A stretch of 58,400 nt of DNA, filler included, from Basidioascus undulatus (GCA_000826855.1; 5 parts of 5 records of this genome joined end to end with filler, not necessarily neighbours in it); one strand, 5' to 3'; positions 7,521 to 53,508 are shown, numbered from the whole stretch's first letter. Notes: generated by a model not told the origin, from the letters alone. Numbers and translations are program-made.

Positions 7521-7620
7521 NNNNNNNNNNNNNNNNNNNNNNNNNNNNNNNNNNNNNNNNNNNNTTAATTAATTAANNNNNNNNNNNNNNNNNNNNNNNN
7601 NNNNNNNNNNNNNNNNNNNN
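7521..7620. other. Artificial scaffold gap linker (N44-TTAATTAATTAA-N44)
   Basis: The identical all-frame-stop linker occurs four times in the window. Confidence 0.97.
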
Positions 7621-15134: not shown

Positions 15135-15234
15135 NNNNNNNNNNNNNNNNNNNNNNNNNNNNNNNNNNNNNNNNNNNNTTAATTAATTAANNNNNNNNNN
15201 NNNNNNNNNNNNNNNNNNNNNNNNNNNNNNNNNN
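15135..15234. other. Artificial scaffold gap linker
   Basis: N44-TTAATTAATTAA-N44. Confidence 0.97.
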
Positions 15235-22737: not shown

Positions 22738-22837
22738 NNNNNNNNNNNNNNNNNNNNNNNNNNNNNNNNNNNNNNNNNNNNTTAATTAATTAANNNNNNN
22801 NNNNNNNNNNNNNNNNNNNNNNNNNNNNNNNNNNNNN
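22738..22837. other. Artificial scaffold gap linker
   Basis: N44-TTAATTAATTAA-N44. Confidence 0.97.
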
Positions 22838-28715: not shown

Positions 28716-30857
28716 TCAAGCGGCGAAACGCAGCGTGGCCAACCTGGACCACGCCCAGACGAGCAGAGCGATGAGGCAGTACTTCAAGATCAAGTCTGAA
28801 AGGGCGTAATCTCAAGAATGTCAGACGGATGCTGATCATATCACGGGGCGAACATTTGGAACGTACCAAAGTAGCAGATCGACGCAGGCCTGCTGTCGAC
28901 CTTCGCCTTGCGGCGGGCCTCCTTGCCTGCGTGGCCCTGTGCCTCGGAAACGGCGGAGCGGTAGCCGTCCAACAAGCCCTCCATGACAGCGTGCCAGCTC
29001 CCACGGCTGCGGCCCTCCGCCGCGGCGTTCGCGGCCATCGTGCGCCTACGGTTGTGGTCGGACGCCAGCGTGAGGAGCAGGTCGGAGTACGCGCGCGCGG
29101 ACGCGTTGAAGGGAGCGCTGAACGGCGTTGCGAGGTGCTCGGCCCAAGTCGTCGAAGTGGAGGGCAAGGGAAGGAGAAGACCAGTGGAAGACGGGGAGAC
29201 GAGGTCGCGCGTGCCCTCGGCGTCGAGGCCGACGACAGGCAGACCAGACGTGAGCGCCTCGAGGACGACTTGGCCTGCCGAAGGAGACACCGTCAGCATG
29301 GGTACCTCTTGAGGATGGGCCTTGAAGCGTACCGAAGGTCTCAGTGAAAGAGGGGAAGGCAAAGATGTCGGCGCTCGCGAAAGTCGTAGCGAGGTCCTTG
29401 CCCGACTTGTGCCCAGTGAAGACCGCATCGATGCCGCGCTCCTTGCAGAGACTCTCGAGCTCGGCGCGAGCCGGCCCGTGGCCTGTAAAGACGAGCTTGC
29501 AGGAGAGAGAGCGAGGGAGCATGTCGAACGCGGACACCAAAAGGAGGAGGTTCTTTTCCCAGCTCAAGCGGCCGACGTAGAGGATGATGAGCGAGGACGA
29601 GATCGGGGGCACATCGGCGCCTGCGTCGGCGCCAACTGGGAAGAGGTCCGGCGACGGCGGGGGCGTGAGTGGAGCGACGACGCCCTGCGGGAGGAGCGGG
29701 ATGTCGCCGGCGGCCTTTGATGCCTGCACCGGCTGGCCAGCGATCATGTCGGGCTTGAGTCCCCAGGACGCCCGCAGGGCGTCGTCGCGCAAGTGCGGGC
29801 CGAAGAGCGTGAGGTCGACGCCACGCGACCAAACCTTGACATTGTTGAAGCCGCGCTCGCATAGGATGGCGGCGGTCGAAGGCGAGGGACAGAAAACAGC
29901 TTGGCACCTGAGAACAGACACGAGGTTAGAATCCAATTCAACAGGAGGCGCAAGGGGTGTTCGCACTGGTTGTGCAGGTGAAGCAGCCAGTTCCACATCG
30001 TGCGCTCGAGCCACGGCATGCCGAAGAGGCGGGCATATCTAAATCGGCGCCAAAAATATCAGTATCCTTTGTCAACAAGATGCTCTTATGGGTCCGGCAG
30101 CAACGTACGTGGGGAGGTTGGTGTGATAGCTCGTGACGCAGGCGATCCCACTCTTGTCCCACAAGCCGCCGCAGATGCCGAGTTGAAGGGCGGTGATGAA
30201 CTGACCGCCGAGCCAAACGGGTTCCACAAAGTGGATAACATCGGGAGACTGGCCAAAGAAAGAAAGTCAGTCAGACACGACGCCAGTCTTCCATGCGTAC
30301 GAGGCGCAGACGCACAAATTCTTTGATGCGGTGGAAGAACAGCGGGCGGACGAAGTTAAGCTTGAGTTGCGGGTAAACAATCAGCGGCAGGCCGAGCGTG
30401 CCAAACACCGGCTGCGAGGCGTATTCATGCTGTCGTCCACGCGTGAAGTGAATGTGGCGAAGTCAGTTTTCATCCGTTCCATGACAAGCATTGGCAACTC
30501 ACAACGCCGGTCGCAGGCCCCAAGACGATTGCCTTGTGTCCCTCCGCCTCGATGTGCTCGAGGAGCCTGGCGAGTGTCCTAGTCACGCCGTCCACCTGGG
30601 CAGCGGCCCGCAAACATCCGCTCAGTCATGACGTCCTGATCGCACACAGAACATGGAACTGCTTGGCAGCCCTACCTTCGGCAGAAAGTTTTCTGAAAAG
30701 GGAAGGGGATTCAGTTTCTGCTGTTGACTCGAACACCTGAACAGTCCTACGCACCGGTAACAATAGCAATTCTGAGACGCTTGGACTTCGGTTGCTGCGT
30801 AGCAGCGGCCTCGAGCTTTGGGCTCGACGCGACAAGAGGAGCGGCGGCAGCGGTCAT
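28716..30857 (-). CDS. Family GT4 (GT-B) glycosyltransferase with C-terminal hydrophobic segment
   Basis: LRIAIVT|ENFLPK|VDGVTRTL, SYHTNLPTY, WSRGVDLTLF, LYVGRLSWEKN and FAFPSFTETFG|QVVLEA (EX7E). Final exon LILKYCLIALLVWAWSRL. Confidence 0.9.
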
Positions 30858-39775: not shown

Positions 39776-40887
39776 TTAAGCGTGATATTGCGCCGGCTGC
39801 GGCACAGACTGCTCTGCCTGCTTCTCCTCCACGCTGGACTTCTCCGCTCCGGACTCGACTGCAAATATCAGTTCCAGTAAGTCTAAACCAGTATCTGAAG
39901 ACGAACGTCGCAACCAGACGCACCTTTCGCCCTGCGCTCCAACTCATTCTTCGGCCACGCCTCGATCCACTCCACGCCGAGCTCAAAGCCCTCTTCGCGC
40001 TCCCGCCTGCCCTTCGCCCCGCCCGCCGCATCGGCCAGGATCGAGATGCCGACGGTGCGGATCTTCTCGCGCATCATCTTGATCTGCTTCTTGACCGTCT
40101 GGCCAGAGTTGGTCAGGACAAAGTTGTCGAGGGGCACGACGACCGTCTCCCATTCGCCCGGCGTGCGGAGGAACAGCCGGTGCTGGAAGAGGTCGGTCTT
40201 TATGGGTCCGTCGGTCTGAGGGAGAGGGACACGTGAGACTAACGAGTATGATGGGTGTAAGAGGCTGGGGCGACGGACCTGGATGTTCACGAAGTAGCCG
40301 GAGGAGGAAGGACCGCGCTTGGGCGGGCTGTTCTCGCGCACGCGGAGAGCGAGGTAAGGGCGCATCGAGGTGTCCCAGGTCGTGACTCCGAACAGGCGCG
40401 TCTTCGTCTATGTCCAGGCCATCCCCACCCGGCACCCCGCGTCAGCTACGCTCCTCGCCTTCGCCCGCCCATCACGGCGACTCACCTTAGTCCTGAACCC
40501 CGCATACCCGCTCCGCGCAGACTCGCCCTCCTTCAGCTTGCGCTTCCACTCCTCGGGCACGCTCGTGCGCAGCGTGCCCCAGAAGCGGCCCTTTCCCTCC
40601 GCGTCCGTGTCGAGCGCCGCGTTGCTCGCCCCGCCAATATCCGAGTCGCACCCGACCGCGCATTCGGCGAGGTCGGACGGCTTCTCGAGGCTGAGAAGGC
40701 GAATCGGAGGCCAAGAGGGGGATGGATTGGCGGCGAGGACTGCCGGAGACGCGGCGGATCAGTTGAGGATGACGGGCTAGGAGCCGAAGACAGACGCACC
40801 GCGTTGGGTGCTGGTCGTGAGATGCTCTGCCGTGTTTTTAAGGTAGTTCTTCCAGGCAGTGGACCGCAGCGGCGCAGTTGCAATCAT
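39776..40887 (-). CDS. CIA30: Complex I intermediate-associated protein 30 (NDUFAF1)
   Basis: VGCDSDIGGAS, RFWGTL, RSGYAGFRTK, YLALRV, YFVNIQ|TDG..TDLFQHRLF, WETVVVPLDNFVLTNSG and IRTVGISI. Confidence 0.92.
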
Positions 40888-41314: not shown

Positions 41315-44300
41315 ATGTCTCTCGACTTCAAGGGCCAAACGGCGCTCGTCACTGGGGCTGGCGGCGGGCTGGGAAAGGCGTGCGTCCTCCATTACACCCT
41401 TTTATCTACTGCTTCGCATGGGGGCATCTGTAAGACATAATCTTACGCCGATAATACTCTAGATACTCTCTATTCTTCGCCTCTCGCGGGGCCAACGTCG
41501 TCGTGAACGACGTTTCGGCTGAGGCAGCGCAGGCCGTTGTGGACGAGATCAAGAAGGGTTCGTCTTTGAACAGCGCTTGATCCGTGCCTCGTTTGGAGGA
41601 TTTACTCACGATTGAGTGGATTTTCAGCTGGTGGAAAGGCCGTGGTCAACACGTCGAGCGTTACGGAGGGGGACAAGGTTGTGAAGTCGGCTGTGGATGC
41701 GTTCGGAGGACTGCACATCCTCATCAACAATGTATGTCTTCTGTTCTGCGCAGTCATAAGGGAAGTAGGTTGACGGATATGCTGTAAATAGGCTGGTATC
41801 CTGAGGGACAAGTCCTTTGCCAAGATGAGCGACAAGGTCAGACTCCCGCTCCCGGTTCTGCCAACCATGTCCTGACCTCACACTGTGCCAACGCCTCGCA
41901 GGAATGGGACTTTGTCATGGAGGTCCACGTCAAGGGATCATACTCGTGCACCAGGGCAGCCTGGCCGATATTCAGGTATGCGCTCCATGACACCTTCTGC
42001 CCCTCCAGATTGCATTGTTGACCGAGCCTGCGCGAATGCAGGCAGCAGAAGTACGGCCGGATCATCAACACCGCGTCCGCTGCAGGCCTGTACGGCAACC
42101 GCGGACAGGCAAACTACTCGAGTGCCAAGATGGCTCTCGTAGCCTTTACGAAGACTCTGGCGCGTGAGTACTGCGTGCTCTCAATCGTGATTCCCGGCCG
42201 TCTGACTGACGCATCTACGCAGTCGAGGGATTCAAGTACGGCATCAGGGCGAATGTCATCGCGCCGGTGCGTCTCGGGAGGTGTTTCGGAAACGTACGAA
42301 TCTTTCTCACACACAGAGACGGTATGCGCAGATGGCCAAGAGCGCTATGACCGAGACGGTCATGCCGCCCGACATGCTCGAGCACCTGCAGCCGACGGCG
42401 GTCGCGCCCTTCGTAGCGTTCCTCTGCGCGCCAGACGGGTACGCGCCGGACTCGAAGCCAGTCAGCGGCCGGTGAGTATCAGATAATCATTTGCTGCCCG
42501 AGGGACCGCTCTCACGCTTTGGCATCCCCAGCATTTTCGAGGTTGGCGCCGGCTACTGCGCTGAGGTCAGGTGGGAGCGAGCTAAGGGTGCGTTGGATGA
42601 TCGAGCTGAGCGTTGAGGACCAGCACAGCTCATTCTCGACGCATTGGGATTCAGGCACTACCTGGCGCCCGGACGACTCCTTCACCCCCTCGGCAGTCAA
42701 GGCCAAGTGGGAGGAGGTCATCGACTTCGACCGGGGCGTCGAGCACCCGGAGACGATGGCGGACGCTTCATCCAACATGCAGGTGCGTTTGCTTCCTTCC
42801 AGGCTGCCCCTCAATCCTTCCAACCCTAAACATTCCGTTCACTCGCAATCGCAGGACATCCTGCAAACGGCTGCTAGCCTGCCCGGGAACCCGCAGGCGG
42901 ACCCGCCCGTCCGGTACGACGGCAAGACGGTCATCATCACCGGCGCGGGCGCGGGTCTCGGCAGGGCGTACGCACTCATGTTCGCCAAGCACGGTGCGCA
43001 GGTCGTCGTGAGCGACGTATCGGAGAAGGGCGCGAAGGCGGTCGCGGAGGAGATCAAAGCTGGTGCGTTCCTCCTGCTGTTTCTCTCAGACAAGAACAGC
43101 AGGCTTATTGTTGCGCGTACACAGCTGGAGGCAAGGCCATATCCGTCGTTGCGTCCGCCGAGGACGGCGAGGCGATCGTGAAGGCCGCCGTGGACGCGTT
43201 TGGGAGCGTCCACGTCCTCATCGCGAACGCGGGCATCCTCCGCGACAAGTCGTTTGCGGCAATGTCGGACAAGGAGTGGGACGACGTGATCGCTGTTCAC
43301 TTGCGCGGTACGTCTTATCCATCTCCGCTCAGGGCGAGAAGCCGATGCTGACGACTGCGGAGAACGGTTGGCAATAGGGACGTACAAGGTCCGTTATGCA
43401 AGGCGAGGGACTCAGAGAAGCGCAGATGCTGAACTATATGATTTTTGCAGTGCGCCAAGGCCGTTTGGCCGATCTTCCAGAAGCAGGGATACGGCCGGAT
43501 CGTCACCACGGGCTCGGCAGTCGCCCTCCAGTCAGTCCAGTCCGCTTCGTACCGCAGCATACCTCTGTTGCTCACGCGCGTTACCTGTACAGCGGAAACT
43601 TCGGACAAGCAAACTACTCGGTCTGTCGTCGCACCAGTCGAGGAGATCAGACAGGCGGATGCTGAATCTCGTGACTTGGACAGACTGCGAAAGCCGGTAT
43701 CATCGGGCTCACGCGCACGCTCGCGATCGAGGGAGAGAAATATGGGTACGTCGTGATAGGACTTCAGCAGAATGTTTAGTCAAGAGTGAGAGGCTGATCG
43801 TCCCGGTGCTCCAGCATTCTCGCGAACGCCATCGTGCCTACTGCTGGGACTGCTGTGAGCCTTCAGGCGTCTTTCAACTGCATCGCTGCTTCGTGATACT
43901 GAATAAGCGGGGTTTTAGATGACGGCTACTATTTGGCCCGACGAGATGGTCAGTCAGGCTTTGCTGAACGTGCCAGGAAATCTGGCCTTGACACCTTTCA
44001 CACGACTGCAGGTCCAGCTCTTCAAGGCAGGCACTGCGAATTTCACTTGAGAGCGCGACGTGGCACTGACGCTGTCCCAAGCAGCCTGACTTTGTCGCTC
44101 CCGTTGTGGGTTTCCTCGCATCGGAGGGTGAGTAGCTGAATCGCTACATCCCGTCCTGAGCGAGAGCTTACGCCACACGCTCGTTCAGACAATGACGGCA
44201 CCGGTGGCATCTACCAGGTCGCGGCCGGCTGGGCGGCCAAGACCCGCTGGCAGCGCGCGGGTGGATACGGCTTCCCGCACGGCAAGTTCACGCCCGAGGA

Positions 44301-46115
44301 CGTCAAGACCAAGTGGAACGTCATCACCAACTTTGACGACGGCCGCGCGACGCACCCGGAGTCGACCGCCGAGGCTCTGCAGCAGGTGCGTGAGATGTGC
44401 AACTCCAACCCCGGCTCCTGAGACCAGCTGTTGCAACGACGCTGATGCGGGCATGATTGGAGCAGATCGTCGAGAACTTCGACGCGGACGAGGAGGGAGC
44501 CGACGACGAGTTCGCGGACCCGGAGGACGCGGACATCGTCAAGGAGGCCAAGAAGGAGCGCTACGACCCGCAGGAGTTCGAGTACACGGAGCGGGATGTC
44601 ATCCTCTGTAAGTTCCTATTGTGCACAGTCCCATGGCAGCTGTCGATGCTGACTTGACATGACTGTTCCAACAGACAGTGCGCCGTTTCTTTGCTTGCTG
44701 CGCCGCGCACCGTGACTGTGACTGACTTTCGACCCTCAGACCTCGGCATCGGCGCGACTGAGAAGGACCTGCAATGGGTCTACGTAATTCAATTCAGCTC
44801 TCATGCTCCAACATGGATGGCTCACAATGTCTGCAGGAGAACCAAGACGGCTTCGCGCCGCTCCCCACCTTCGCAGTCGTACCCTCCTTCGGCGCCTCGT
44901 CAGCTATCGACTTTGGCTTCTTGCCCAACTTCTCTCCCGTACGTTCACAGATATTTTGAACCGCATCAAGATGATGTTGCTGATGGTTTGGGGCGACACT
45001 TGCAGATGAAGTTGCTGCACGGCGAGCAGTATATCAAGATCCACAAGCCGCTTCCGACTAGCGCAACCCTTGTGAACACTGCGAAGCTCGTCGAGGTGAG
45101 CTTGGCCTTGGGACAAGCATGACTCATGATGAACTCTAATTGAACTGGCGGTGATACAGGTCCTCGACAAGACGAAGGCGGCGGCGGTCACGATCAAGGT
45201 CGAGACCAAGGACCGCGAGTCGGGCGAGCTGTACTGCGAGAACGAGATGACTGTCATCCTTCGTGGCTCGGGTGGCTTTGGTGGGTGCAAGGACGGCAAG
45301 GGTAGGCCAACGAGCTCCCAACCAGTTTCTGCATCGACGTTCTGACCCGCGTGCATCGCACCAGACCGTGGCGCGGCGACCGCTCCCAACAAGCCGCCTA
45401 AGCGCGCACCGGACGCGGTTGTGGAGGAGAAGACGGACATCAAGCAGGCTGCGTTGTACCGGTGCGTTTCTTCCGTGCCGTTCTTGACTTTGCACATCAG
45501 GCGACTGACTGCTCTTCGGGAGTACAGCCTGTCGGGCGACTACAACCCGCTCCACGTGCGTTGCTGAAGAGTTTGGGCGGTTGATATTTGGAGCTCACTG
45601 AAAGGCTGCCCTACAGGTGGACCCCAACTTCGCCGGCGCTGGCGGATTCGACAAGCCAATCCTCCACGGTCTCTGCAGCATGGGCTTCGCTGGCAAGCAC
45701 GTCCTGCAGAAGTTCGGTCCTTGGCAAGACATTAAAGTTCGGTAAGTGCTCGCTTTATCTCACGAGTTGAACAATCTCATATAGACCACATCTGATGTTT
45801 CGATGATTCTTCCTTCTTCAGCTTTGTCGGCCACGTGTTCCCGGGCGAGACGCTTCGTACGCACTGACGTGGCGGACACACAGATCTGAGCTGGCACTGA
45901 CCGAATATGTCATTGCGCAGGCACCGAGATGTGGAAGGAGGGCGACAAGGTCATCTTCAGTACGTTCTTCCCTGGCCCATCCTTGGAAGTGCTGCAGTTC
46001 TAACCCCTACCGTGACGCAGTCGCCAAGGTCAAGGAGCGCGACAGTGTGGCCATCGCGGCTGCCGCCGCGACGCTCGTGAACGACGGCAAGTCCGAGCTC
46101 AAGGCGAGGCTGTGA
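41315..46115 (+). CDS. FOX2: Peroxisomal multifunctional beta-oxidation enzyme (two SDR domains + MaoC hydratase)
   Basis: TGAGGGLG and [49 protein letters not shown] and C-terminal PTS1 -ARL*. Roughly 30 introns. Confidence 0.96.
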
Positions 46116-46428
46116 GATGCGAGGGGAGGCGGGGAGCGGTGGCGATACGAGGGAGCTATGAGGAGATATTTGTACGAGTACGAGTAAGAGAAGCGAGTAA
46201 AGAGAAGTGAATTATCGTGCACATCTTATCAAACTGCTGTGCGGTGCGGTACATGTCTCTCCTCGCCTCGAAGTCTCCTTAGAGTGTTTAAAGCAGGTAG
46301 ATGTGGATCACAGTATAGGGCGTAAACGCGAGTGGAAAAGAACGTAAAAAAACGAACAGGAAACTCCACAACAGCACAGCAGCTCGCAGCCACGCGTCCT
46401 CCAAACGCACCCCTGCCAGCCTGTGGCT

Positions 46429-47629
46429 CTACTTCTTCTTCTTGCTAAGCGCGTCAGCGTGGACGTCCCCGTCCGTGAGCGAAGCAGACTGGTTGGCGTT
46501 CTGGGAGATGGCGGCAGCACGGGTTAGTTCCGAAGAGGGGAAGTTGAGGCCTGAAGAAAGACGAGGACACAGGGTGGCCCCTTCTCCTCACGTTCTGCGA
46601 AGTATGTGAAGAGTTTGCGGGAACTATTTTAGTAAACTTCTGTAGGAATTGTACAGATAAGTTAGACTTACAATGTTCTGAACCTCCAAATCGCCACGTT
46701 TCTTGCGGTGCCGGCGCTGCAAGCGCCACGGGCCTGTAGAGCTCCTGCGCCGTTTGTCCTTGGAGTACTGTCCACCGTGCGAGCTCGTGTCCCTGGCGAA
46801 TGCTTCATGATAAGGCGTCGGTATCGAAAACAAGATACATAGATAGGCTCACATGTTGAAGAGCGCTTGATTCGCGTTCTGCAAGTCCGCCTCTCAGCAT
46901 CGGCAGGGAGAGGAGCAAGTCTGACGTTACCGTACGTTCTGTTGAGCAATCAAGCGAGTGAGCCTTACTGATCATGGTTTCTCGAAACAAATAATTTCGA
47001 CGAACCGAGCTAACAAGTGTAGCATCGCCATCCATCCGCTTCTTGAGCTCGTTCTCCCGCTCAGCGAGCTGCTGCTCGCGTTTCTTGAGGTACTCCTCGC
47101 GCTTGGCCAATTCCGCCAGCCGGTCACCTCGCTTCTTGAGCTCTTCTCCGCGCTTCGAGAACTCCTCCTCCCGCTTCTTCAGGGCGGCCTCCCGCTTTGC
47201 GTGCTCCTTCGCCTTCTCTGCGGCGGCCTGGGCCAGGTTGTAGTAGTGGGTGTCGTTCTCCGTGACCGCGAATGCGCCGTCGATAGTCCTGTAGTACCAA
47301 GGGTACCCAATTCAGTTCGAGTCTAAACTCTTGAAATAAACAGGAACTCTGTATACATACGGCTTAACGATGTTCTTGATGTTGAGACCCTTCGCACGAC
47401 GGACTTTGTTGGCAGCGGGTGCGGGCACGACGGGCTCGGGCGCTGCGGTGCGGCGATAGAGCGTGTTGGTGTCCGCCTCGACGAACATATTGGGGTCAAC
47501 GTCGTTGCCTTTGTCGATATCGTGCGCGAGGGCGTTGATAGGGATGGGCTCGGCGAGCGGTCGGGCGTGCACGACGCACGCCAAAACGAGTGACGCTGCA
47601 AGTGAAAAAAGTAGGAGAGGACGAATCAT
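46429..47629 (-). CDS. Secreted Kex2-site repeat protein, copy A
   Basis: Signal MIRPLLLFSLAASLVLA and many KR/RR sites. The reconstruction ends GDLEVQNI|N|NANQSASLTDGDVHADALSKKKK*. Intron positions are shared with copy B. Confidence 0.8.
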
Positions 47630-48945
47630 AGCTATAGATCTCTTCACCATTACCTGGAATTTGGGGGCGGGGGAGGGGGGGGGTACTTGAGAGGGGGAAG
47701 CAGAGGGGAACGTCCCTTTCACTTGAATGCAGCCGGTCGCCAGACAGATAAGCGGTGTTGTCTGGCTGGAGCTGTGTACGGCCTGAAGGCCAAACATCAG
47801 GGGTAATTTTGTGATTGAAACACAGAGGCAACACGTGGTTAAGACTGACATCAAGAGATACGTTGGGCGAGGGCTGGAAAGGAGGCGTCGAGGCCAAGGC
47901 GAGGCAGCCAGCCATCGAGGAGATGGCAAGCACCGACAGGAGGAAAGCAGCCCTGTGTCCGTTGGCTGGATACCCTATCCACATAAAGTTTTGAAAACAA
48001 ACCACTTCCGGGACCGTCTGCAGGATATTTGGATGAACTTTCGAGACTCGCAGCCGTGTTTCCGCGCTTTATCGACACTGAGCTCTAACTTATTGTTGAG
48101 CATTTGGCCGGTACATTCCTTTGCTTCTTAACAAACGAAAAATACTTAGATCTGCTTCCTTTCAGAGGACCGGCAAGCGTGGAGGAGTAATGGGTTCGAG
48201 GTCAACGACCGAGATTGCACAGCCGAAACAGGCACTAAGATTTGGAGGGAGCGTCAGAAGAGCATCTTGAGGACATTGTCACTTCGCTTTCTTGGGTTCA
48301 ATTGAATACAAAGTACCTGAAATTTATCTAGCGTTTTTCCATAATTAAGGACTCATCTTGGCACGAGCGAGAATGGCTGCAGGTCCTCGAGGGACACAGG
48401 CCACAGGCGAGCAGGGAGGGGCAGGGGGAAAGGTTGCAACGGACGAGCCGGGAGAAAGTGATCAGAGCTACTGGTTCATATGAATGGTTTGTTTGGCTTC
48501 CATCAGTCGGTATAAGGTTCCATTGCTTCAACCCCTCTGTCGGCGTGCATCGTGGCAAGCTCGCAGCTTTGAGTGGAAAGCGTCGACAGGCGACCGAACA
48601 TGCCGGAAAACGCCAATTTAAGGGAAAGCACTCTCTAAGACTTACCTAAAAATAGACACAATCAATTATCGCCCGACTTGGGCTGATGTAGGTTGAGACT
48701 GCCATCTGCCATAGAGCTGCCTCTGCCGAAACGCTTCCAAGGTCTAATAACCCTCCATGTGCTAGTGAATTTCAAAGTCCAGTATAGATATTCTGTGGCA
48801 TAAAATAAGATATAGATGCTGAATGCGGGTATGTGAGGTGACTTCCGTGGATGGAAATACAAGAAAGAAGAGATACAAAAAAGCGAAGCAGTTTCGAAGA
48901 CCTCTGGAAATGAGGACCCATCCCAGACTCGAGCCCTTCCTTCCT

Positions 48946-50151
48946 TTACTTGCTCCACTGGTCGGCGTGGACGTCTCCTTCGGTGAGGGAGGCAGATTGG
49001 TTGGCGTTCTGTGTGATCGTGGGATACGTCAGACGCGGTTCATAGGAGGCCGGACCAAGGCAGAAGAACCATTTCTGCTTACGTTCTGCGAAGTGCGGAC
49101 AACATTCAGCACACGTTGGTGTCTTCGAGAGGGGTGGAGAGAGGGATGGTTTTGGACAGACCGTGTTTTGAACCTCCAAGTCGCCACGCTTCTTCTTCCG
49201 CGACCGGCGCTGCAGGCGCCGCGGGCCTGGAGAGCTCCTGCGCTTCTTGCCCTTGGAGTACTGTCCACCGTGTGAGCTCGTGTCCCTGCACATGCGGTCG
49301 CTACTTCAGTTTCGGTATTAACCTGGACACCGCATAGTGACTTACATGTAGAAGAACGCTTGGTTTGCGTTCTGTAAGCCTGCCTGTCAGCATCGGCAGT
49401 GGGAGGTGCTTGTCTGACGTTACCGTACGTTCTGTCGAGCAACAAAGAGACTTAGCCACACTGAACACGGCCTATCAAGATACAGGGGCTCGTAGAACCT
49501 GGCTGATAAGCGTAGCATCGCCGTCTATGCGCTTCTTGAGCTCGGTCTCGCGCTCAGCGAGCTGCGCCTCGCGCTTCTCAAGGTGGTCTTCGCGCTTGCC
49601 AAGCTCTGCGAGCAGCTCCTCCCGCTTCTTGAGCTCCTCCTCGCGCTTCGAGAACTCCTCCTCACGCTTCTTCAGCGCTGCCTCCCGCTTCGCGTGCTCC
49701 TTCGCCTTCTCGGCGGCGGCCTTCGCGAGCGTGTAGTAGTGCGTGTCGTTCTCGGTCACTGCGTACGCGCCGTCGATGGTGCTGCCCCATCATCAACGTG
49801 TCGGTCTGTACATGGAATAACATATGAATAATGGACCCAGTCTACATACGGCTTCACGGTGTTCATGATGTTGAGGCCCTTGGCGCGCTTGACCTTGTTG
49901 GGGCCCGCAGTAGGTGCAGGCCCGACAGGCTCGGGCGCAGCGGTGCGGCGACCGAACGTCTTGGTGTGCGCGATGACGTGCGTCTTGGCCGCGTTGTAGC
50001 CGATCGAGACGGACGGCTCGACGTCGTTGCCGATGTTGATGCCGTACGCGAAGACGTTGACGGGGGTCGCTTCGGCCTGCGGCTCGTCGTGCACGATGCG
50101 CGCGAGGACGAGAGGGGCGGCGAGGGAGAGGAGGAGGAGGGGGCGGATCAT
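48946..50151 (-). CDS. Secreted Kex2-site repeat protein, copy B (tandem paralog)
   Basis: Signal MIRPLLLLSLAAPLVLA and the same exon structure as copy A. Ends GDLEVQNT|N|NANQSASLTEGDVHADQWSK*. Confidence 0.8.
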
Positions 50152-50801
50152 TGTTGGGGTGGATGCGTCCGGGGGGGACCTTGAAGGAGAATTGAGAGAG
50201 AAGGAGAGGGAGAAGGGGAGAAGCCTTTTCTTTAAGTATGCTGTGATGGGTGAAAGACAAGCAGTGTTGTCGAACGGCGGCTTTGCGTGGGCGTGCCACC
50301 TTGCAATACAGATTGGAACACGTGAAATGGAGCAAGATAAATCCCAAGCGCGATAAACAGGCACGCACACAATCAGCCATCATAGAGATGGCAGGCTGTG
50401 AAAGGGGAGTCAGCGAGGTCTGGTTCCGCTCGAAGTGTTGCCTGCTCACGAAGAGCCCCAAGACAAGGACAGCCTTATCTTTCGACAACAGGCTGTGATT
50501 AATGTAGCACCCCTTTTCGTGAAAATCACGGTAAAATGGGCTTGCCCTGAGTAGCTAGATCCGACTTCTCCCATGAGCGTTGCATTCCCAACGGCGCCGT
50601 TTCTTTGTTCGCACAACGAATCTGTCCCCTTGAGAAGTTCCTACGAGGCCTGGACCTCCACTTGTTTGTTCACGAGAAACATGAAAGACGGGGAAGTCCT
50701 TAGCGGCGCGTGCATTAGGCGGATGCTGCCTAACCGTTGACGGCCAATGAAGTCGCAAGCTGACTGCACAAATTTTCACCCAACAAACGTGCAGTGCACA
50801 T

Positions 50802-50901
50802 NNNNNNNNNNNNNNNNNNNNNNNNNNNNNNNNNNNNNNNNNNNNTTAATTAATTAANNNNNNNNNNNNNNNNNNNNNNNNNNNNNNNNNNNNNNNNNNN
50901 N
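50802..50901. other. Artificial scaffold gap linker
   Basis: N44-TTAATTAATTAA-N44. Confidence 0.97.
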
Positions 50902-53508
50902 TCGTCCTTCTTCTTCTTGTCAACCTTCTCCTCACGCTCGTCCTTCTTCTTGTTCTTCTGGCCCTCGCCCGCCTCGTCCTTCCACCGGAACGCCTTTTTG
51001 GGCGGCGCGGCCGCGGGTGCGGGTGCGCCGGATGACGAGGCGACGCCGGGGCGGAGGGTGACCTTGCGCGGGGATTCGCGGGGGTAGGCCGCAGAGACGC
51101 GGCGGGCGCGAGAGGGGCGGGGCGGGGATAGTGGCGAAGCTTTGCGGGAGAGCGGCATGGCTAAAGAGAGGGGCGGCGGTGCGTTGAACCCGCCAGACTT
51201 GCCGGCGGGTGAGGAGGTAGCGGACGAAGGGGGCGGGACTGGAAGGTGGGTGGTCGACGTGCTGAGCGCGGCAGCGAGGGCCAGCTCGGCGTCCTCGCTC
51301 GCCTTCTGCATCGCCCGCGCAGTTTCGAGCACCCGTGCCGCATCCCCAATGACCTCCTGCAACGCCCTCCCCTCCCCGCCGAGGACGCCCGCCGCGCGCG
51401 CGCCCGCCGCCGCGGCGTCCGCGCAGGCCCCAAACGCAGCCTTCCACGCGTCCTCGCGCTTGCGCGCCTCCTCCACGCGCGCCTCGAGCCGGCACAGCGC
51501 CATCGCGTCTCGGATGCGGTTCACGGACGGCGCGTCGAGCGAGTCGTACCGCCGCTCGCCGATCGCGCGCAGCGTCGCGTCCAGCATGGCGCTGCTCTTC
51601 TGCGCTTGGGTGAGGTGTGCGCGCGCGGGCGACGTGGGCTCGAGTATCGCGGCGAGGGGCGTGAGGAGCGTGGTGAGGAGAGCCTGCTCGGCCAGGGCAG
51701 CAGGGGAGAGAGGTTGGGGCATGGCGGCGAGGACGCTCAGCCGCGCCTCGAGCGGCGCAGCCTGCACGGCCGCGGTCGCGAGGACGGTTTCCCAGCCCGC
51801 GCCGGCGGCGATGCTGGGGAGGGTCGCGTCGAGCTTGGCGCGCATGTCGGCGATTGCGCGCTCGACCTCGCGCGCGGCCGCGTCGCGCTTGCGCTGCTCC
51901 GTCGCGCTCCGGAGCTCGGCGCCCTCGTCGAGAGCATTCTGCAGGCGCGCGTTCACCTCACGCAGCTCGGCGATCGTCTGCACGTACTCGCGGACGTGCC
52001 GGTCGACGTTGATCAGGTTGCGCGACACCTTCGTCTTGATGTTCTTGGCGCGGTTCGCGTACTTGAGCGTGTTCTGCGACTCCTCGTAGTGCATCGAGGC
52101 GGGGGAGACACAGACGATCTAGGGGGAAGAGTGAAGAAAGCATGAGCAATGAGAAAAAGCGCTCGGCGCAGAGAATACCGAAAACGCACCATGACCGTCT
52201 TGCAGTTCCCGCCGAGCGAAAACTTGAGCAGGCGCGTGAGCTTCGAGTTGCGATAAGGAATGTGACCCTTCGCGCCCTCGCAGAGCGCGTTGATACAGTT
52301 GCCGAGGGCGAGCAAGCTTTTGTTGATGTTTGCGCCCTCGGCCATGCGCGCACCCGAGTTCTGCGTCGCACTCGCGCGCTCCGACCCGGCGAGGTCGATG
52401 ATGCTGAGCGTCGCGCACTGCTCGACGTCGCTCGTCGGCTCCTTGCGCTTGACGTTGACCTGCAGCACGGCGTGCGAGCGCGAGCTCGTCGCGTTCGCCA
52501 TCGTCGGGCTCATCGTCCGCCGTCGATTCCCCTCGAGCACCATCTCGAGCACTTCCTCCCACGTGCGCGGGTGGTGCTCCGACAGGCGCGCGACGCTGAT
52601 CCGCCGGTCCGCGTTCTCCTGCAGCGCAAGGCCGCCCTTCGGCGGCGGCGGTGAGCCCGGTGGCGCAAGAAGGTCCCGGATCGTCTCGTTGTAGATCTCG
52701 AGGTAGGAGAGCGAGACGTGGACCGAGACGCCGGTGGGCTCGAGCTCGGAGATGCGCAGGAAGAGCTCCTGCATCGTGCGGATGATGATGCCCGGGTCGG
52801 TGGGCGTGCCGGAGATGGTGTGCGTCTTGCCGCAACCGGTCGCCTACCCTCACCCACCCTGCGTCAGCGTGCCTTTCCAATCCACGTCGTCTGCCAGGCC
52901 ACGAGACTCACTCCATATGCGAACACCGTCGCGTTGAACCCATCCAGAATCCCATCCAGCAACGGCCTCGTCGTGTTATCAAACACCTCCTCCTGGCTCG
53001 CGCCCTCGCCAAACACGCGGTCGAACGCGTAGCGCTGGTCCTTAAAGCGCTTGGTGCCGGGGCGGACGAAGCCCTTCTCGGCGAAGGCGCGGGCGGGGTC
53101 CGAGTCGGGCGGGTCGAAGACTAGGACACGGTCGTCAATGACCTCGATGATGCGGCGGGCGGAGCGGGTCTTGTTTGGTGTTGGAGGGGCGAGGGAGCCG
53201 TCGCCGAGGAAGACTGCAGGCGCCGTCGAGACTGGCACGATGAGACCGGACTCTTTGGCGGTCAGGGGACGGACGCGGACTGTTGAGAGGGAAGACCGGG
53301 GTCAGTCTGGTCTGTCGTGGGGATACTGAGCATTATCTGGCCATCTGGCATGAACAGCCATCGCGACTGAGCGCCGGGATGATCGTCCGGGCTGGTGTGC
53401 TCGCTCGCTCCATCCCAAGCATCGACGGAGCTCCCAGCCGAGCTCTCTCCGCCTGTTCCAGGGCAAATCCCACTCACCCGAGACGTTGATGCTCGAGTCC
53501 GCCGACAT
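50902..53508 (-). CDS. KIP3: Kinesin-8 family motor (Kip3/Klp5-like), 3' end in gap
   Basis: MSADSSINVS|VRVRP, LVFDP, YAFDRVF, P-loop FAYG|ATGCGKT, NATSSRSHA, DLAGSER, EGANINKSLLALGNCI, HIPYRNSKLTRLLKFSLGGNC and NTLKYANRAK. Confidence 0.92.

What the first reader, a model, noticed from the sequence alone, without database searches (positions are those of the whole stretch)
46429..50151. Tandem pair of secreted Kex2-processed repeat proteins: candidate repellent/functional-amyloid peptide precursors
Seen: two head-to-tail paralogs with signal peptides and identical intron positions. After manual splicing each has four ~25-30 aa modules bounded by dibasic sites. In copy B these are GINIGNDVEPSVSIGYNAAKTHVIAHTKTF-GRR; KR-AKGLNIMNTVKPTIDGAYAVTENDTHYY; KR-IDGDATLISQNNANQAFFYMDTSSHGGQYSK-GKKRR; and KR-GDLEVQNTNNANQSASLTEGDVHADQWSK. 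The modules are N/Q/G/T/V-rich with alternating polar/apolar residues and no Cys. Established: fungal Kex2 cleaves after KR/RR, and Ustilago maydis Rep1 is a Kex2-processed repeat precursor whose peptides form surface amyloid-like fibrils. Inference: this may be an undescribed family of self-assembling surface or signalling peptides. I recognise no known domain.
Basis: partly seen in the sequence, partly recalled or inferred. Interest (0 to 1): 0.8.

Follow-up and report, generated by a model that had tools for sequence, protein, structure and literature searches.

The report
Orphan secreted repeat-protein gene pair
Two neighbouring fungal genes encode a previously unseen kind of small, cysteine-free secreted protein with four loosely similar short modules, a long charged helix and clusters of basic residues, which may be cut into peptides, but nothing yet shows what they do.

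Summary
The tandem pair is real. Both copies lie on the minus strand (B 48946-50151, A 46429-47629), share all six intron positions and evolve under purifying selection (Ka/Ks 0.21, Ks 0.69). Each encodes about 260 aa with a signal-peptide-like N-terminus. The mature part has no Cys.

Only 3 of 6 module pairs in copy B, and 1-2 of 6 in copy A, are similar beyond shuffles.
- a Pro-rich linker;
- a 68-aa charged heptad helix holding 7 of the 14 KR/RR sites;
- a 21-22-aa polybasic linker.

No homologue turned up in any search. The genome is a draft basidiomycete assembly with no close annotated relative.

Cutting by a Kex2-type protease at the conserved linker sites is plausible but untested. The Rep1-like amyloid reading gets no support. 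The modules are hydrophilic, neutral to acidic and not amphipathic beyond chance, and two carry conserved N-glycosylation sequons.

Each gene also appears to contain two 3-nt microexons. No RNA data could be had. Interest is modest: an orphan secreted protein with a KEP-like but atypical layout.

The parts
48946..50151 (-). Copy B gene (ATG 50151-50149 to TAA 48948-48946), 7 exons if both microexons are used, 267 aa
Evidence: Spliced by coordinate to an open frame of 804 nt. Ka/Ks against copy A is 0.205.
46429..47629 (-). Copy A gene (ATG 47629 to TAG 46431-46429), same exon plan, 258 aa. An in-frame ATG 21 nt upstream (47650) is an alternative start.
   Evidence: All six introns are at positions homologous to copy B.
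49850..50151 (-). B exon 1: signal peptide (res 1-17, 50101-50151), pro-region, module M1 (49954-50046), RR, Pro-rich linker (49885-49944), K-V-K-R, start of M2
   Evidence: AlphaFold2 on this exon alone gave only the signal-peptide helix, mean pLDDT 50.8.
49499..49781 (-). B exon 2: rest of M2, charged heptad helix (res 118-185, 49529-49732), first 10 residues of M3
   Evidence: AlphaFold2 gives one continuous helix, residues 2-93 of the exon, mean pLDDT 91.2. E+K+R is 57%, with Leu/Phe every 7 residues. The DNA shows 21-nt periodic repeats (family D1).
49429..49431 (-). B putative 3-nt microexon 1 (AAC, Asn196)
   Evidence: Context is CAG|AAC|GTACGG. The junction is 30/31 identical between the copies inside otherwise diverged introns.
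49346..49371 (-). B 26-nt exon (middle of M3)
49162..49285 (-). B exon 5: end of M3 (to 49252), polybasic linker (res 217-238, 49186-49251), start of M4
   Evidence: Five of the 14 KR/RR sites lie here.
49083..49085 (-). B putative 3-nt microexon 2 (AAC, Asn247)
   Evidence: Context is CAG|AAC|GTAAGC, with the junction conserved between copies.
48946..49008 (-). B last exon (rest of M4 plus stop)
47361..47629 (-). A exon 1 (signal peptide, shortened M1, RR, Pro-rich linker, K-V-R-R, start of M2)
47006..47288 (-). A exon 2 (rest of M2, helix res 107-174 at 47036-47239, start of M3)
46936..46938 (-). A putative 3-nt microexon 1 (AAC)
46853..46878 (-). A 26-nt exon
46672..46792 (-). A exon 5 (end of M3, polybasic linker res 206-226 at 46696-46758, start of M4)
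46592..46594 (-). A putative 3-nt microexon 2 (AAC)
46429..46500 (-). A last exon (rest of M4, K-K-K-K tail, stop)
49372..49428 (-). B intron 3 (57 nt). Its counterpart in A is 46879-46935. It is unusually conserved.
   Evidence: 84% identical between copies, against 50-64% for the other five introns (z 13.8). It has in-frame stops if retained, no Rfam match and no fold beyond shuffles.

Best explanation
These are two real, old tandem duplicates of a lineage-specific gene for a small, cysteine-free secretory pre-pro-protein.

LAYOUT
- Signal peptide.
- Fast-evolving module M1.
- R-R, then a Pro-rich linker, then K-[KR]-R.
- Strongly conserved module M2.
- A 68-aa charged heptad helix with the repeat unit L/F-x-K-R-E-E-x.
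- Module M3.
- A 21-22-aa polybasic linker.
- Module M4.

MOST LIKELY MECHANISM (inferred, not shown)
1. The protein enters the ER.
2. In the late Golgi a Kex2-type convertase cuts at least at the conserved dibasic sites in the flexible linkers. These are after R-R before the Pro-rich linker, after K-[KR]-R before M2, after K-K-R before M3, in the polybasic linker, and after K-K-R before M4.
3. This releases three or four neutral-to-acidic peptides of roughly 30-45 aa.
4. The helix then acts as a charged spacer or pro-region. It either stays on M2 or is itself chopped at its L-x-K-R sites.

The layout is therefore that of a Kex2-processed repeat protein (KEP), but an atypical one, with few, diverged, non-tandem cores. 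What the peptides do outside the cell is open. A Rep1-like amyloid coat is the least supported of the options considered.
For: SHOWN BY THE SEQUENCE
- Purifying selection, Ka/Ks 0.205. It is strongest on M2 (0.05), M4 (0.13) and the helix (0.15). M1 is near 1.
- Signal-peptide-like N-terminus and no further hydrophobic segment.
- No Cys in the mature part.
- 14 KR/RR sites against about 4 expected, 0/5000 shuffles.
- Every module is preceded or followed by a dibasic site in both copies. K/R exchanges keep the site: K-V-K-R vs K-V-R-R, G-K-K-R-R vs D-K-R-R-R, R-K-K-K-R vs H-R-K-K-R.
- The linker sites sit in P/G/S-rich, presumably exposed sequence.
- 6 of 7 helix sites in each copy have Leu/Phe at P4 and mostly Glu at P1'. 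This matches the Kex2 preference for P1 Arg, P2 Lys/Arg and aliphatic P4 (PMC8528282, passages read).
- The formal KEP screen of Le Marquer et al. asks for a signal peptide, no TM segment, and at least 4 fragments on KR/RR cleavage. That part is met, with 15 fragments per protein (PMC6339444 passages).
- Stand-alone KEPs without homologues are common: 2560 of 7878 (PMC7329392 abstract).

WEAK
- AlphaFold2 finds no fold in exon 1. Mean pLDDT is 50.8 from a two-sequence alignment.
Against: - No expression, secretion or cleavage data exist. No RNA run was listed.
- The modules are far more diverged than typical KEP cores, which are described as 'identical or nearly identical motifs' (PMC6339444 abstract). 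Only 3 of 6 pairs in B, and 1-2 of 6 in A, exceed shuffles.
- The only fragments that would match a common pattern in the KEP pipeline are the four 7-aa helix heptads, not the modules.
- Half of the dibasic sites lie in a confidently predicted continuous helix. There they can be explained as i/i+3 and i/i+4 salt-bridge partners of Glu, with 17-19 and 15-16 opposite-charge pairs.
- The helix is under purifying selection (Ka/Ks 0.15), which is unexpected for a disposable spacer.
- Five more sites form one polybasic cluster. Only two isolated sites remain.
- Whether this fungus has Kex2 could not be checked, because no genome is held.
Confidence: 0.4

Rival explanations
1. This is an intact modular secreted protein. 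The four short modules pack together, or bind a ligand or the wall. The central segment is an ER/K-type single alpha-helix or weak leucine-zipper stalk. The K-R pairs in it are structural salt-bridge partners, not cleavage sites. The polybasic stretch tethers the protein to an anionic surface such as wall phosphomannan or a membrane.
For: - AlphaFold2 gives one uninterrupted helix over exon 2, mean pLDDT 91.2.
- E+K+R is 54-57%, with many i/i+3 and i/i+4 opposite-charge pairs and only 5 same-charge i+4 pairs.
- Leu/Phe falls every 7 residues, at helix positions 20, 27, 34, 41 and then 44, 51, 58, 65.
- The helix is under purifying selection, Ka/Ks 0.15.
- The modules are too diverged to be copies of one bioactive core.
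- Conserved N-D-T and N-Q-S sequons suggest a glycoprotein.
Against: - There is no Cys to stabilise a small extracellular fold.
- Dibasic clusters in P/G/S-rich linkers are good convertase substrates and are conserved as such.
- Only one hydrophobic position per heptad, so this is not a canonical coiled coil.
- The E/K/R share is below what I recall for classical single alpha-helices. That figure is recalled, not tested.
Confidence: 0.33
2. This is the first reader's specific reading, a Rep1-like repellent precursor. Kex2-released modules self-assemble into amphipathic amyloid-like fibrils on the hyphal surface.
For: - Signal peptide, dibasic-bounded modules of about 30 aa and no Cys, as in Rep1 (PMC4617103 passages).
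- M3 and M4 are 19-24% N+Q.
- Aromatic patches occur, for example in B M3.
Against: - Four non-tandem modules, against 12 mostly tandem repeats in Rep1.
- The modules are hydrophilic, with mean KD -0.06 to -1.14.
- Their net charge is 0 to -5.
- The beta hydrophobic moment is not above shuffles, with 374-1130 of 2000 shuffles as high.
- Conserved N-glycosylation sequons lie in M2 and M4.
- No sequence relative of any kind was found.
- TANGO and Waltz were not available, so aggregation propensity was not properly scored.
Confidence: 0.07
3. This is a secreted effector or antimicrobial pro-protein aimed at another organism. The arginine/lysine-rich 21-22-aa stretch acts as an uptake, nuclear-targeting or membrane-active element. 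The acidic modules mask it until release.
For: - The polybasic linker is flanked by modules of net charge -2 (M3) and -1 to -4 (M4).
- M1 evolves at Ka/Ks near 1, as effector surfaces often do.
- It is an orphan, tandemly duplicated small secreted protein.
Against: - The lifestyle of the fungus is unknown.
- The same stretch contains four or five canonical convertase sites and would probably be destroyed in the Golgi.
- There is no similarity to any known effector.
Confidence: 0.1
4. The gene models are artefacts, or the genes are silent relics.
For: No transcript evidence could be obtained. There is no homologue anywhere.
Against: - Ks is 0.69 with Ka/Ks 0.21.
- Every splice junction is kept and the frames are open in both copies.
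- Introns and flanks have diverged much more than exons.
Confidence: 0.05

Closest known systems
Kex2-processed repeat proteins (KEPs) as defined by Le Marquer et al. 2019 (PMC6339444) and Umemura 2020 (PMC7329392)
   Same: Signal peptide, no TM segment, many KR/RR sites (15 in-silico fragments), peptide-sized pieces between sites, no known domain. Orphan 'stand-alone' KEPs are common.
   Different: KEP cores are near-identical and tandem. Here the four modules are weakly similar and are separated by 20-, 68- and 22-aa non-repeat segments. The only near-identical KR-bounded fragments are 7-aa units of a helix. No DUF3328-type tailoring gene appeared in the ORFs scanned on the same contig.
Ustilago maydis Rep1 repellent precursor, with Hum3 and Rsp1 (PMC4617103 and PMC3133707, passages read)
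   Same: Basidiomycete, secreted, Cys-free repeat region, imperfect repeats of about 30 aa bounded by dibasic sites. The overall size is close to Rsp1 (260 aa).
   Different: Rep1 has 12 repeats, Hum3 17 and Rsp1 11, mostly tandem, and the Rep1 and Hum3 repeats are amphipathic. Here there are 4 modules that are non-tandem, hydrophilic and neutral to acidic. A long charged helix and a polybasic linker have no counterpart in those descriptions. No sequence similarity was detected.
ER/K single alpha-helix (SAH) domains and leucine-zipper-like heptad helices (recalled from general knowledge, no paper read here)
   Same: 68 aa with 54-57% E/K/R, dense i/i+3 and i/i+4 opposite-charge pairs, predicted as one straight helix.
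   Different: It sits in a secretory protein. It has one Leu/Phe per heptad and an Ala-rich first third. Its K-R pairs coincide with ideal convertase sites.
Yeast alpha-factor precursor (recalled; mentioned in PMC6339444)
   Same: K-R followed by acidic residues (K-R|E-A, K-R|E-E) with an aliphatic residue at P4.
   Different: There is no repeated identical mature peptide. The acidic stretch after K-R is part of a heptad helix, not an X-Ala/X-Pro Ste13 spacer.

Membership tests
KEP (Le Marquer 2019 screen) | N-terminal signal peptide, no transmembrane segment | tested here: met
   Heuristic only. h-region mean KD is 2.3 and V-x-A precedes the likely cut. The best 19-aa window after residue 25 scores only 0.53-0.58. 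SignalP and TMHMM were not available.
KEP (Le Marquer 2019 screen) | At least 4 fragments of at least 2 aa after in-silico cleavage at every KR/RR | tested here: met
   15 fragments in each protein. 13 (A) and 14 (B) are at least 2 aa long.
KEP (Le Marquer 2019 screen) | At least 3 fragments sharing one near-identical motif | tested here: inconclusive
   Four 7-aa helix fragments per protein share E-x-x-[LF]-x-K-R. The four long modules do not form one pattern: 3 of 6 pairs are significant in B and 1-2 of 6 in A. The authors' own pipeline was not run.
KEP (Le Marquer 2019 screen) | Actual processing by Kex2 and release of peptides | not testable with these tools
   Needs proteomics or a kex2 mutant.
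Rep1-type repellents | Sequence relationship to Rep1, Hum3 or Rsp1 | tested here: not met
   No protein of any kind matched exon 1. Exon 2 matched nothing beyond two unrelated repeat proteins. No direct pairwise comparison with Rep1 was made, because its sequence was not fetched.
Rep1-type repellents | Ten or more mostly tandem imperfect repeats of 34-55 aa separated by Kex2 sites | tested here: not met
   Four modules of 23-32 aa, separated by 20-, 68- and 22-aa segments.
Rep1-type repellents | Amphipathic peptides forming amyloid-like fibrils | tested here: inconclusive
   Crude test. The beta hydrophobic moment is not above shuffles and the modules are hydrophilic and neutral to acidic. Fibril formation is not testable here.
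Ustiloxin/dikaritin-type RiPP precursors | Short repeated Y-x-I-x cores plus a neighbouring DUF3328 gene | tested here: not met
   No such cores are present. Pfam scans of 38 ORFs across the window, including 38-50.8 kb on the same contig, found no DUF3328. Only ORFs of at least 102 aa were scanned, and the contig ends at 50801.
Hydrophobins | Eight conserved Cys | tested here: not met
   0 Cys in B. A has 1, inside the signal peptide.
ER/K single alpha-helix | Long helix rich in E/K/R with i/i+4 salt bridges and no hydrophobic seam | tested here: inconclusive
   The helix is predicted at pLDDT 91. E+K+R is 54-57% with 15-16 i+4 opposite-charge pairs, but Leu/Phe falls every 7 residues.
Canonical coiled coil | Hydrophobic a and d positions; oligomer | tested here: inconclusive
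   Only one hydrophobic position per heptad.

The most novel reading that the evidence does not exclude
This would be a new class of fungal peptide precursor. In it a heptad helix built from L-x-K-R-E-E-x units is a self-destructing, convertase-cleavable charged spacer. The spacer keeps four diverged neutral-to-acidic, glycosylatable modules apart and soluble until the late Golgi, and the released modules then act outside the cell as wall-associated or signalling peptides. The Asn-rich core of two modules is built with conserved 3-nt microexons, which would allow N-N-A-N-Q and N-A-N-Q isoforms by exon skipping.
Probability: 0.1. Interest if true: 0.6.

Novelty: new variant of a known kind. Interest (0 to 1): 0.3.

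Why it matters
If the proteins are processed, they would extend the KEP and repellent concept to precursors whose cores are few, diverged and separated by a structured charged helix. Current repeat-based KEP screens would detect such a layout only by accident, through the helix heptads. The pair is also a compact case of two conserved 3-nt microexons per gene in a basidiomycete, which is useful for testing how gene finders and spliceosomes handle such exons. As it stands it is one more orphan small secreted protein from an unannotated draft genome. It has no expression data, and its function cannot be assigned.

Tried and rejected
- **RNA evidence:** The look-up of sequencing runs listed no RNA holder for 46300-50300.
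- **Whole genome:** none is held, so paralogue counts, Kex2 presence and genome-wide intron statistics could not be obtained.
- **Earlier findings:** three look-ups returned nothing.
- **Pfam:** exons 1 and 5 of both copies matched nothing. Exon 2 gave only sub-threshold hits typical of charged helices, the best being RNase_Y_N at 26.9 bits against a cut-off of 32.
- **PDB sequence search with exon 1:** one chance-level hit, E 0.13.
- **ESM Atlas:** best scores were 0.80 and 0.76, below the level the tool calls a lead.
- **phmmer with exon 2:** the two hits (E 2.8e-5 and 3.7e-5) are a bacterial-type glycosyltransferase with A-Q-I-x-E-R-D repeats and an E-A-x-L-A-x-R-E repeat protein. I rejected both as compositional matches.
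- **Metagenome scans:** 594 and 445 pattern matches, none confirmed by tblastn.
- **Complex prediction** for helix self-association was not available.
- **AlphaFold2** could be run only on single exons. The full spliced protein could not be submitted, so whether the four modules fold together is untested. The exon 1 model is uninformative.
- **Conserved intron 3:** no Rfam family and no fold better than shuffles, z +0.7. Reading it as coding gives stops in the gene's frame in both copies (my reading of the sequences).
- **Module duplication at DNA level:** the introns of M3 and M4 are not similar beyond splice junctions, except A intron 2 against intron 5, z 3.5. The internal duplication is therefore old.
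- **Fold search** was not run, because a lone helix and a low-confidence model would give meaningless matches.
- **Literature:** text searches were for comparators only. They cannot show that this family is unpublished.
Full report
**What is there**

Both genes lie on the minus strand. Copy B runs from ATG 50151 to TAA 48946 and copy A from ATG 47629 to TAG 46429. A 1316-nt spacer separates them.

Splicing by coordinate gives open frames of 267 aa (B) and 258 aa (A).

The exon plan is identical in the two copies:
- exon 1, 302 nt in B and 269 nt in A;
- exon 2, 283 nt in both;
- a 3-nt AAC;
- a 26-nt exon;
- exon 5, 124 nt in B and 121 nt in A;
- a second 3-nt AAC;
- a last exon.

**Are they real genes?**

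- Exons are 67-85% identical between the copies.
- Five of the six introns are 50-64% identical, and the 300-nt flanks 45-49%.
- A codon-wise comparison of 255 codons gives Ka 0.141, Ks 0.688 and Ka/Ks 0.205.
- By region, Ka/Ks is 0.05 for M2, 0.13 for M4, 0.15 for the helix, 0.17 for the Pro-rich linker, 0.20 for M3, 0.40 for the polybasic linker and about 1 for M1 with its pro-region.

This is an old duplication kept under purifying selection, so the frames and splice sites used are almost certainly right in outline. No RNA run could be listed, so expression and exact splicing are not shown.

After a signal-peptide-like N-terminus the B protein reads as follows:
- an 18-aa pro-region;
- M1 (31 aa), followed by G-R-R;
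- a 20-aa Pro-rich linker ending K-V-K-R;
- M2 (28 aa);
- a 68-aa charged helix;
- M3 (31 aa);
- a 22-aa polybasic linker;
- M4 (29 aa).

The signal peptide is judged by heuristic only. The h-region has mean KD 2.3, V-x-A precedes the likely cut, and no later hydrophobic segment exists.

The four modules make up 119 of about 250 mature residues. The finding described only these.

The helix is 54-57% E/K/R. It has 17-19 i/i+3 and 15-16 i/i+4 opposite-charge pairs. Leu/Phe occurs every seventh residue, with a 3-residue register shift in the middle. AlphaFold2 on exon 2 alone predicts one continuous helix, residues 2-93, mean pLDDT 91.2. Its DNA shows 21-nt periodic repeats (family D1). Exon 1 alone gave no confident structure, mean pLDDT 50.8.

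**Are the modules repeats?**

Only partly. Local alignment scores against 2000 shuffles:

| Pair | Copy B | Copy A |
|---|---|---|
| M1-M2 | z 4.75, 0/2000 | z 0.59, 524/2000 (chance) |
| M3-M4 | z 7.75, 0/2000 | z 5.25, 0/2000 |
| M2-M4 | z 3.96, 4/2000 | z 2.59, 44/2000 |
| M1-M3, M1-M4, M2-M3 | at chance | at chance |

Copy A's M1 is cut down to 23 aa. A chain of similarity M1~M2~M4~M3 is therefore plausible. M3 and M4 also share the same odd exon structure. These are still diverged modules, not copies of one core.

**Dibasic sites**

Each protein has 14 KR/RR sites, against 3.7-4.3 in shuffles, with 0 of 5000 shuffles reaching 14. They are distributed as follows:
- seven are in the helix;
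- five are in the polybasic linker in B (A has four there, plus one formed where its M3 joins the linker);
- two are isolated, after M1 and before M2.

All module boundaries carry a site in both copies. Several sites are kept through K/R exchanges while neighbouring residues change.

Six of the seven helix sites in each copy have Leu/Phe at P4, and P1' is mostly Glu. Passages of PMC8528282 give the Kex2 preference as P1 Arg, P2 Lys/Arg and an aliphatic P4. The helix repeat L/F-x-K-R-E-E-x is therefore both a heptad helix design and a string of good convertase sites. The sequence alone cannot say which role matters.

An in-silico KR/RR digest gives 15 fragments per protein, including four 7-aa helix units. 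Under the screen of Le Marquer et al. (PMC6339444 passages) the helix units would be the 'repeat', not the modules.

**The amyloid/repellent idea**

Rep1 has 12 mostly tandem amphipathic repeats of 34-55 aa and is processed into 11 peptides that form fibrils (PMC3133707 and PMC4617103 passages). The modules here differ:
- mean KD is -0.06 to -1.14;
- net charge is 0 to -5;
- their best beta-type hydrophobic moment is matched by 374-1130 of 2000 shuffles;
- N+Q is 10-24%;
- M2 and M4 carry N-D-T and N-Q-S sequons in both copies.

This is a crude test, since no TANGO or Waltz was available. It gives no support to a surface-active amyloid.

**Relatives**

None were found.
- Pfam: nothing at threshold.
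- Word-based search of 5.8 billion clusters with exon 1: none in the longer or the near length class.
- phmmer of exon 2 against 1.84 billion representatives: two hits, both unrelated repeat proteins.
- Two metagenome scans: none.
- PDB and ESM Atlas: nothing usable.

Even the window's own protein is absent from the collections. A neighbouring GT4 glycosyltransferase has its best matches at only 47% identity over 63% of the query (Rhodotorula). Other matches are 51% to Mixia and 55-56% on one third of the query to Ustilaginomycotina. The host is therefore a basidiomycete without a close annotated relative. Failure to find relatives of a fast-evolving secreted protein is weak evidence of true uniqueness.

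**Surroundings**

The window is a chain of contigs joined by N44-TTAATTAATTAA-N44 spacers. The gene pair sits on the piece 22838-50801. Copy B starts 650 nt from that contig's end, so the kinesin gene beyond 50902 need not be a neighbour.

On the other side lies an MFE-2-type dehydrogenase/hydratase gene ending at 46115. No tailoring enzyme of the DUF3328 kind was seen in the ORFs scanned.

**Microexons**

All four AAC triplets sit in CAG|AAC|GT(A/G) contexts. All four following exons start CAG|AACGC. The junctions are the best-conserved spots of otherwise diverged introns: 30 of 31 columns at the first site.

Each half-intron is 57-91 nt. Gaps between tblastn segments of the GT4 gene are similar, at about 53-70 nt. 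A single intron would measure 127 nt at the first site and 153 (B) or 171 nt (A) at the second.

Exons of 3 nt are documented in Coprinopsis, 27 of them in 26 genes (PMC12230235 passages). Including or skipping them keeps the frame, giving N-N-A-N-Q or N-A-N-Q.

The 57-nt intron after the first microexon is 84% identical between copies, as high as the exons. No coding, Rfam or folding explanation was found.

**Verdict**

The most likely reading, at about 0.4, is a KEP-like secretory pre-pro-protein cut at its linker dibasic sites into a few neutral-to-acidic peptides. The charged helix would be a spacer or pro-region.

An intact helix-bearing modular protein is nearly as likely, at about 0.33. 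The Rep1-like amyloid reading is unsupported, at about 0.07. The finding is a new variant within the broad, already crowded class of orphan fungal secreted repeat proteins.

Noticed in passing
B 49429-49431 and 49083-49085; A 46936-46938 and 46592-46594: Two putative 3-nt microexons (AAC) per gene. All eight acceptor junctions read CAG|AACG, and the junctions are the most conserved points of the introns. Skipping would stay in frame.
   Followed up: partly
B 49372-49428; A 46879-46935: The 57-nt intron after the first microexon is 84% identical between the paralogs, against 50-64% for the other introns. It is not coding in the gene's frame, has no Rfam hit and no stable fold. Unexplained.
   Followed up: partly
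window 7521-7620, 15135-15234, 22738-22837, 50802-50901: Four spacers of N44-TTAATTAATTAA-N44. The one at 50802-50901 was read directly and the other three are inferred from matching N-run coordinates. The window looks like a concatenation of draft contigs joined by an all-frame stop linker, so adjacency across these points is not biological.
   Followed up: partly
window 49529-49732 and 47036-47239: 21-nt periodic DNA repeats underlie the heptad helix (repeat finder family D1, copies 21 nt apart). This suggests growth by tandem duplication of a 7-codon unit.
   Followed up: partly
window 50152-50230 and 47633-47720 (minus strand upstream of both ATGs): Pyrimidine-rich (CT) tracts lie directly upstream of both start codons, although the promoters are otherwise unalignable (49% identity). 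Copy A also has an in-frame ATG 21 nt upstream of the one used here.
   Followed up: no
window 42022-46115 (+), 28937-30696 (-), 39883-40407 (-), 50902-53301 (-): The other genes are ordinary housekeeping genes: MFE-2-like SDR/hydratase, a GT4 glycosyltransferase, a CIA30 domain and a kinesin motor. There is no secondary-metabolite or RiPP-tailoring context.
   Followed up: partly
A residues 142-145 and 225-228; B residues 237-240: R-G-D tripeptides occur at K-K-R|G-D junctions, before M4 in both copies and once more in the A helix. This is probably incidental to K-R followed by G-D.
   Followed up: no
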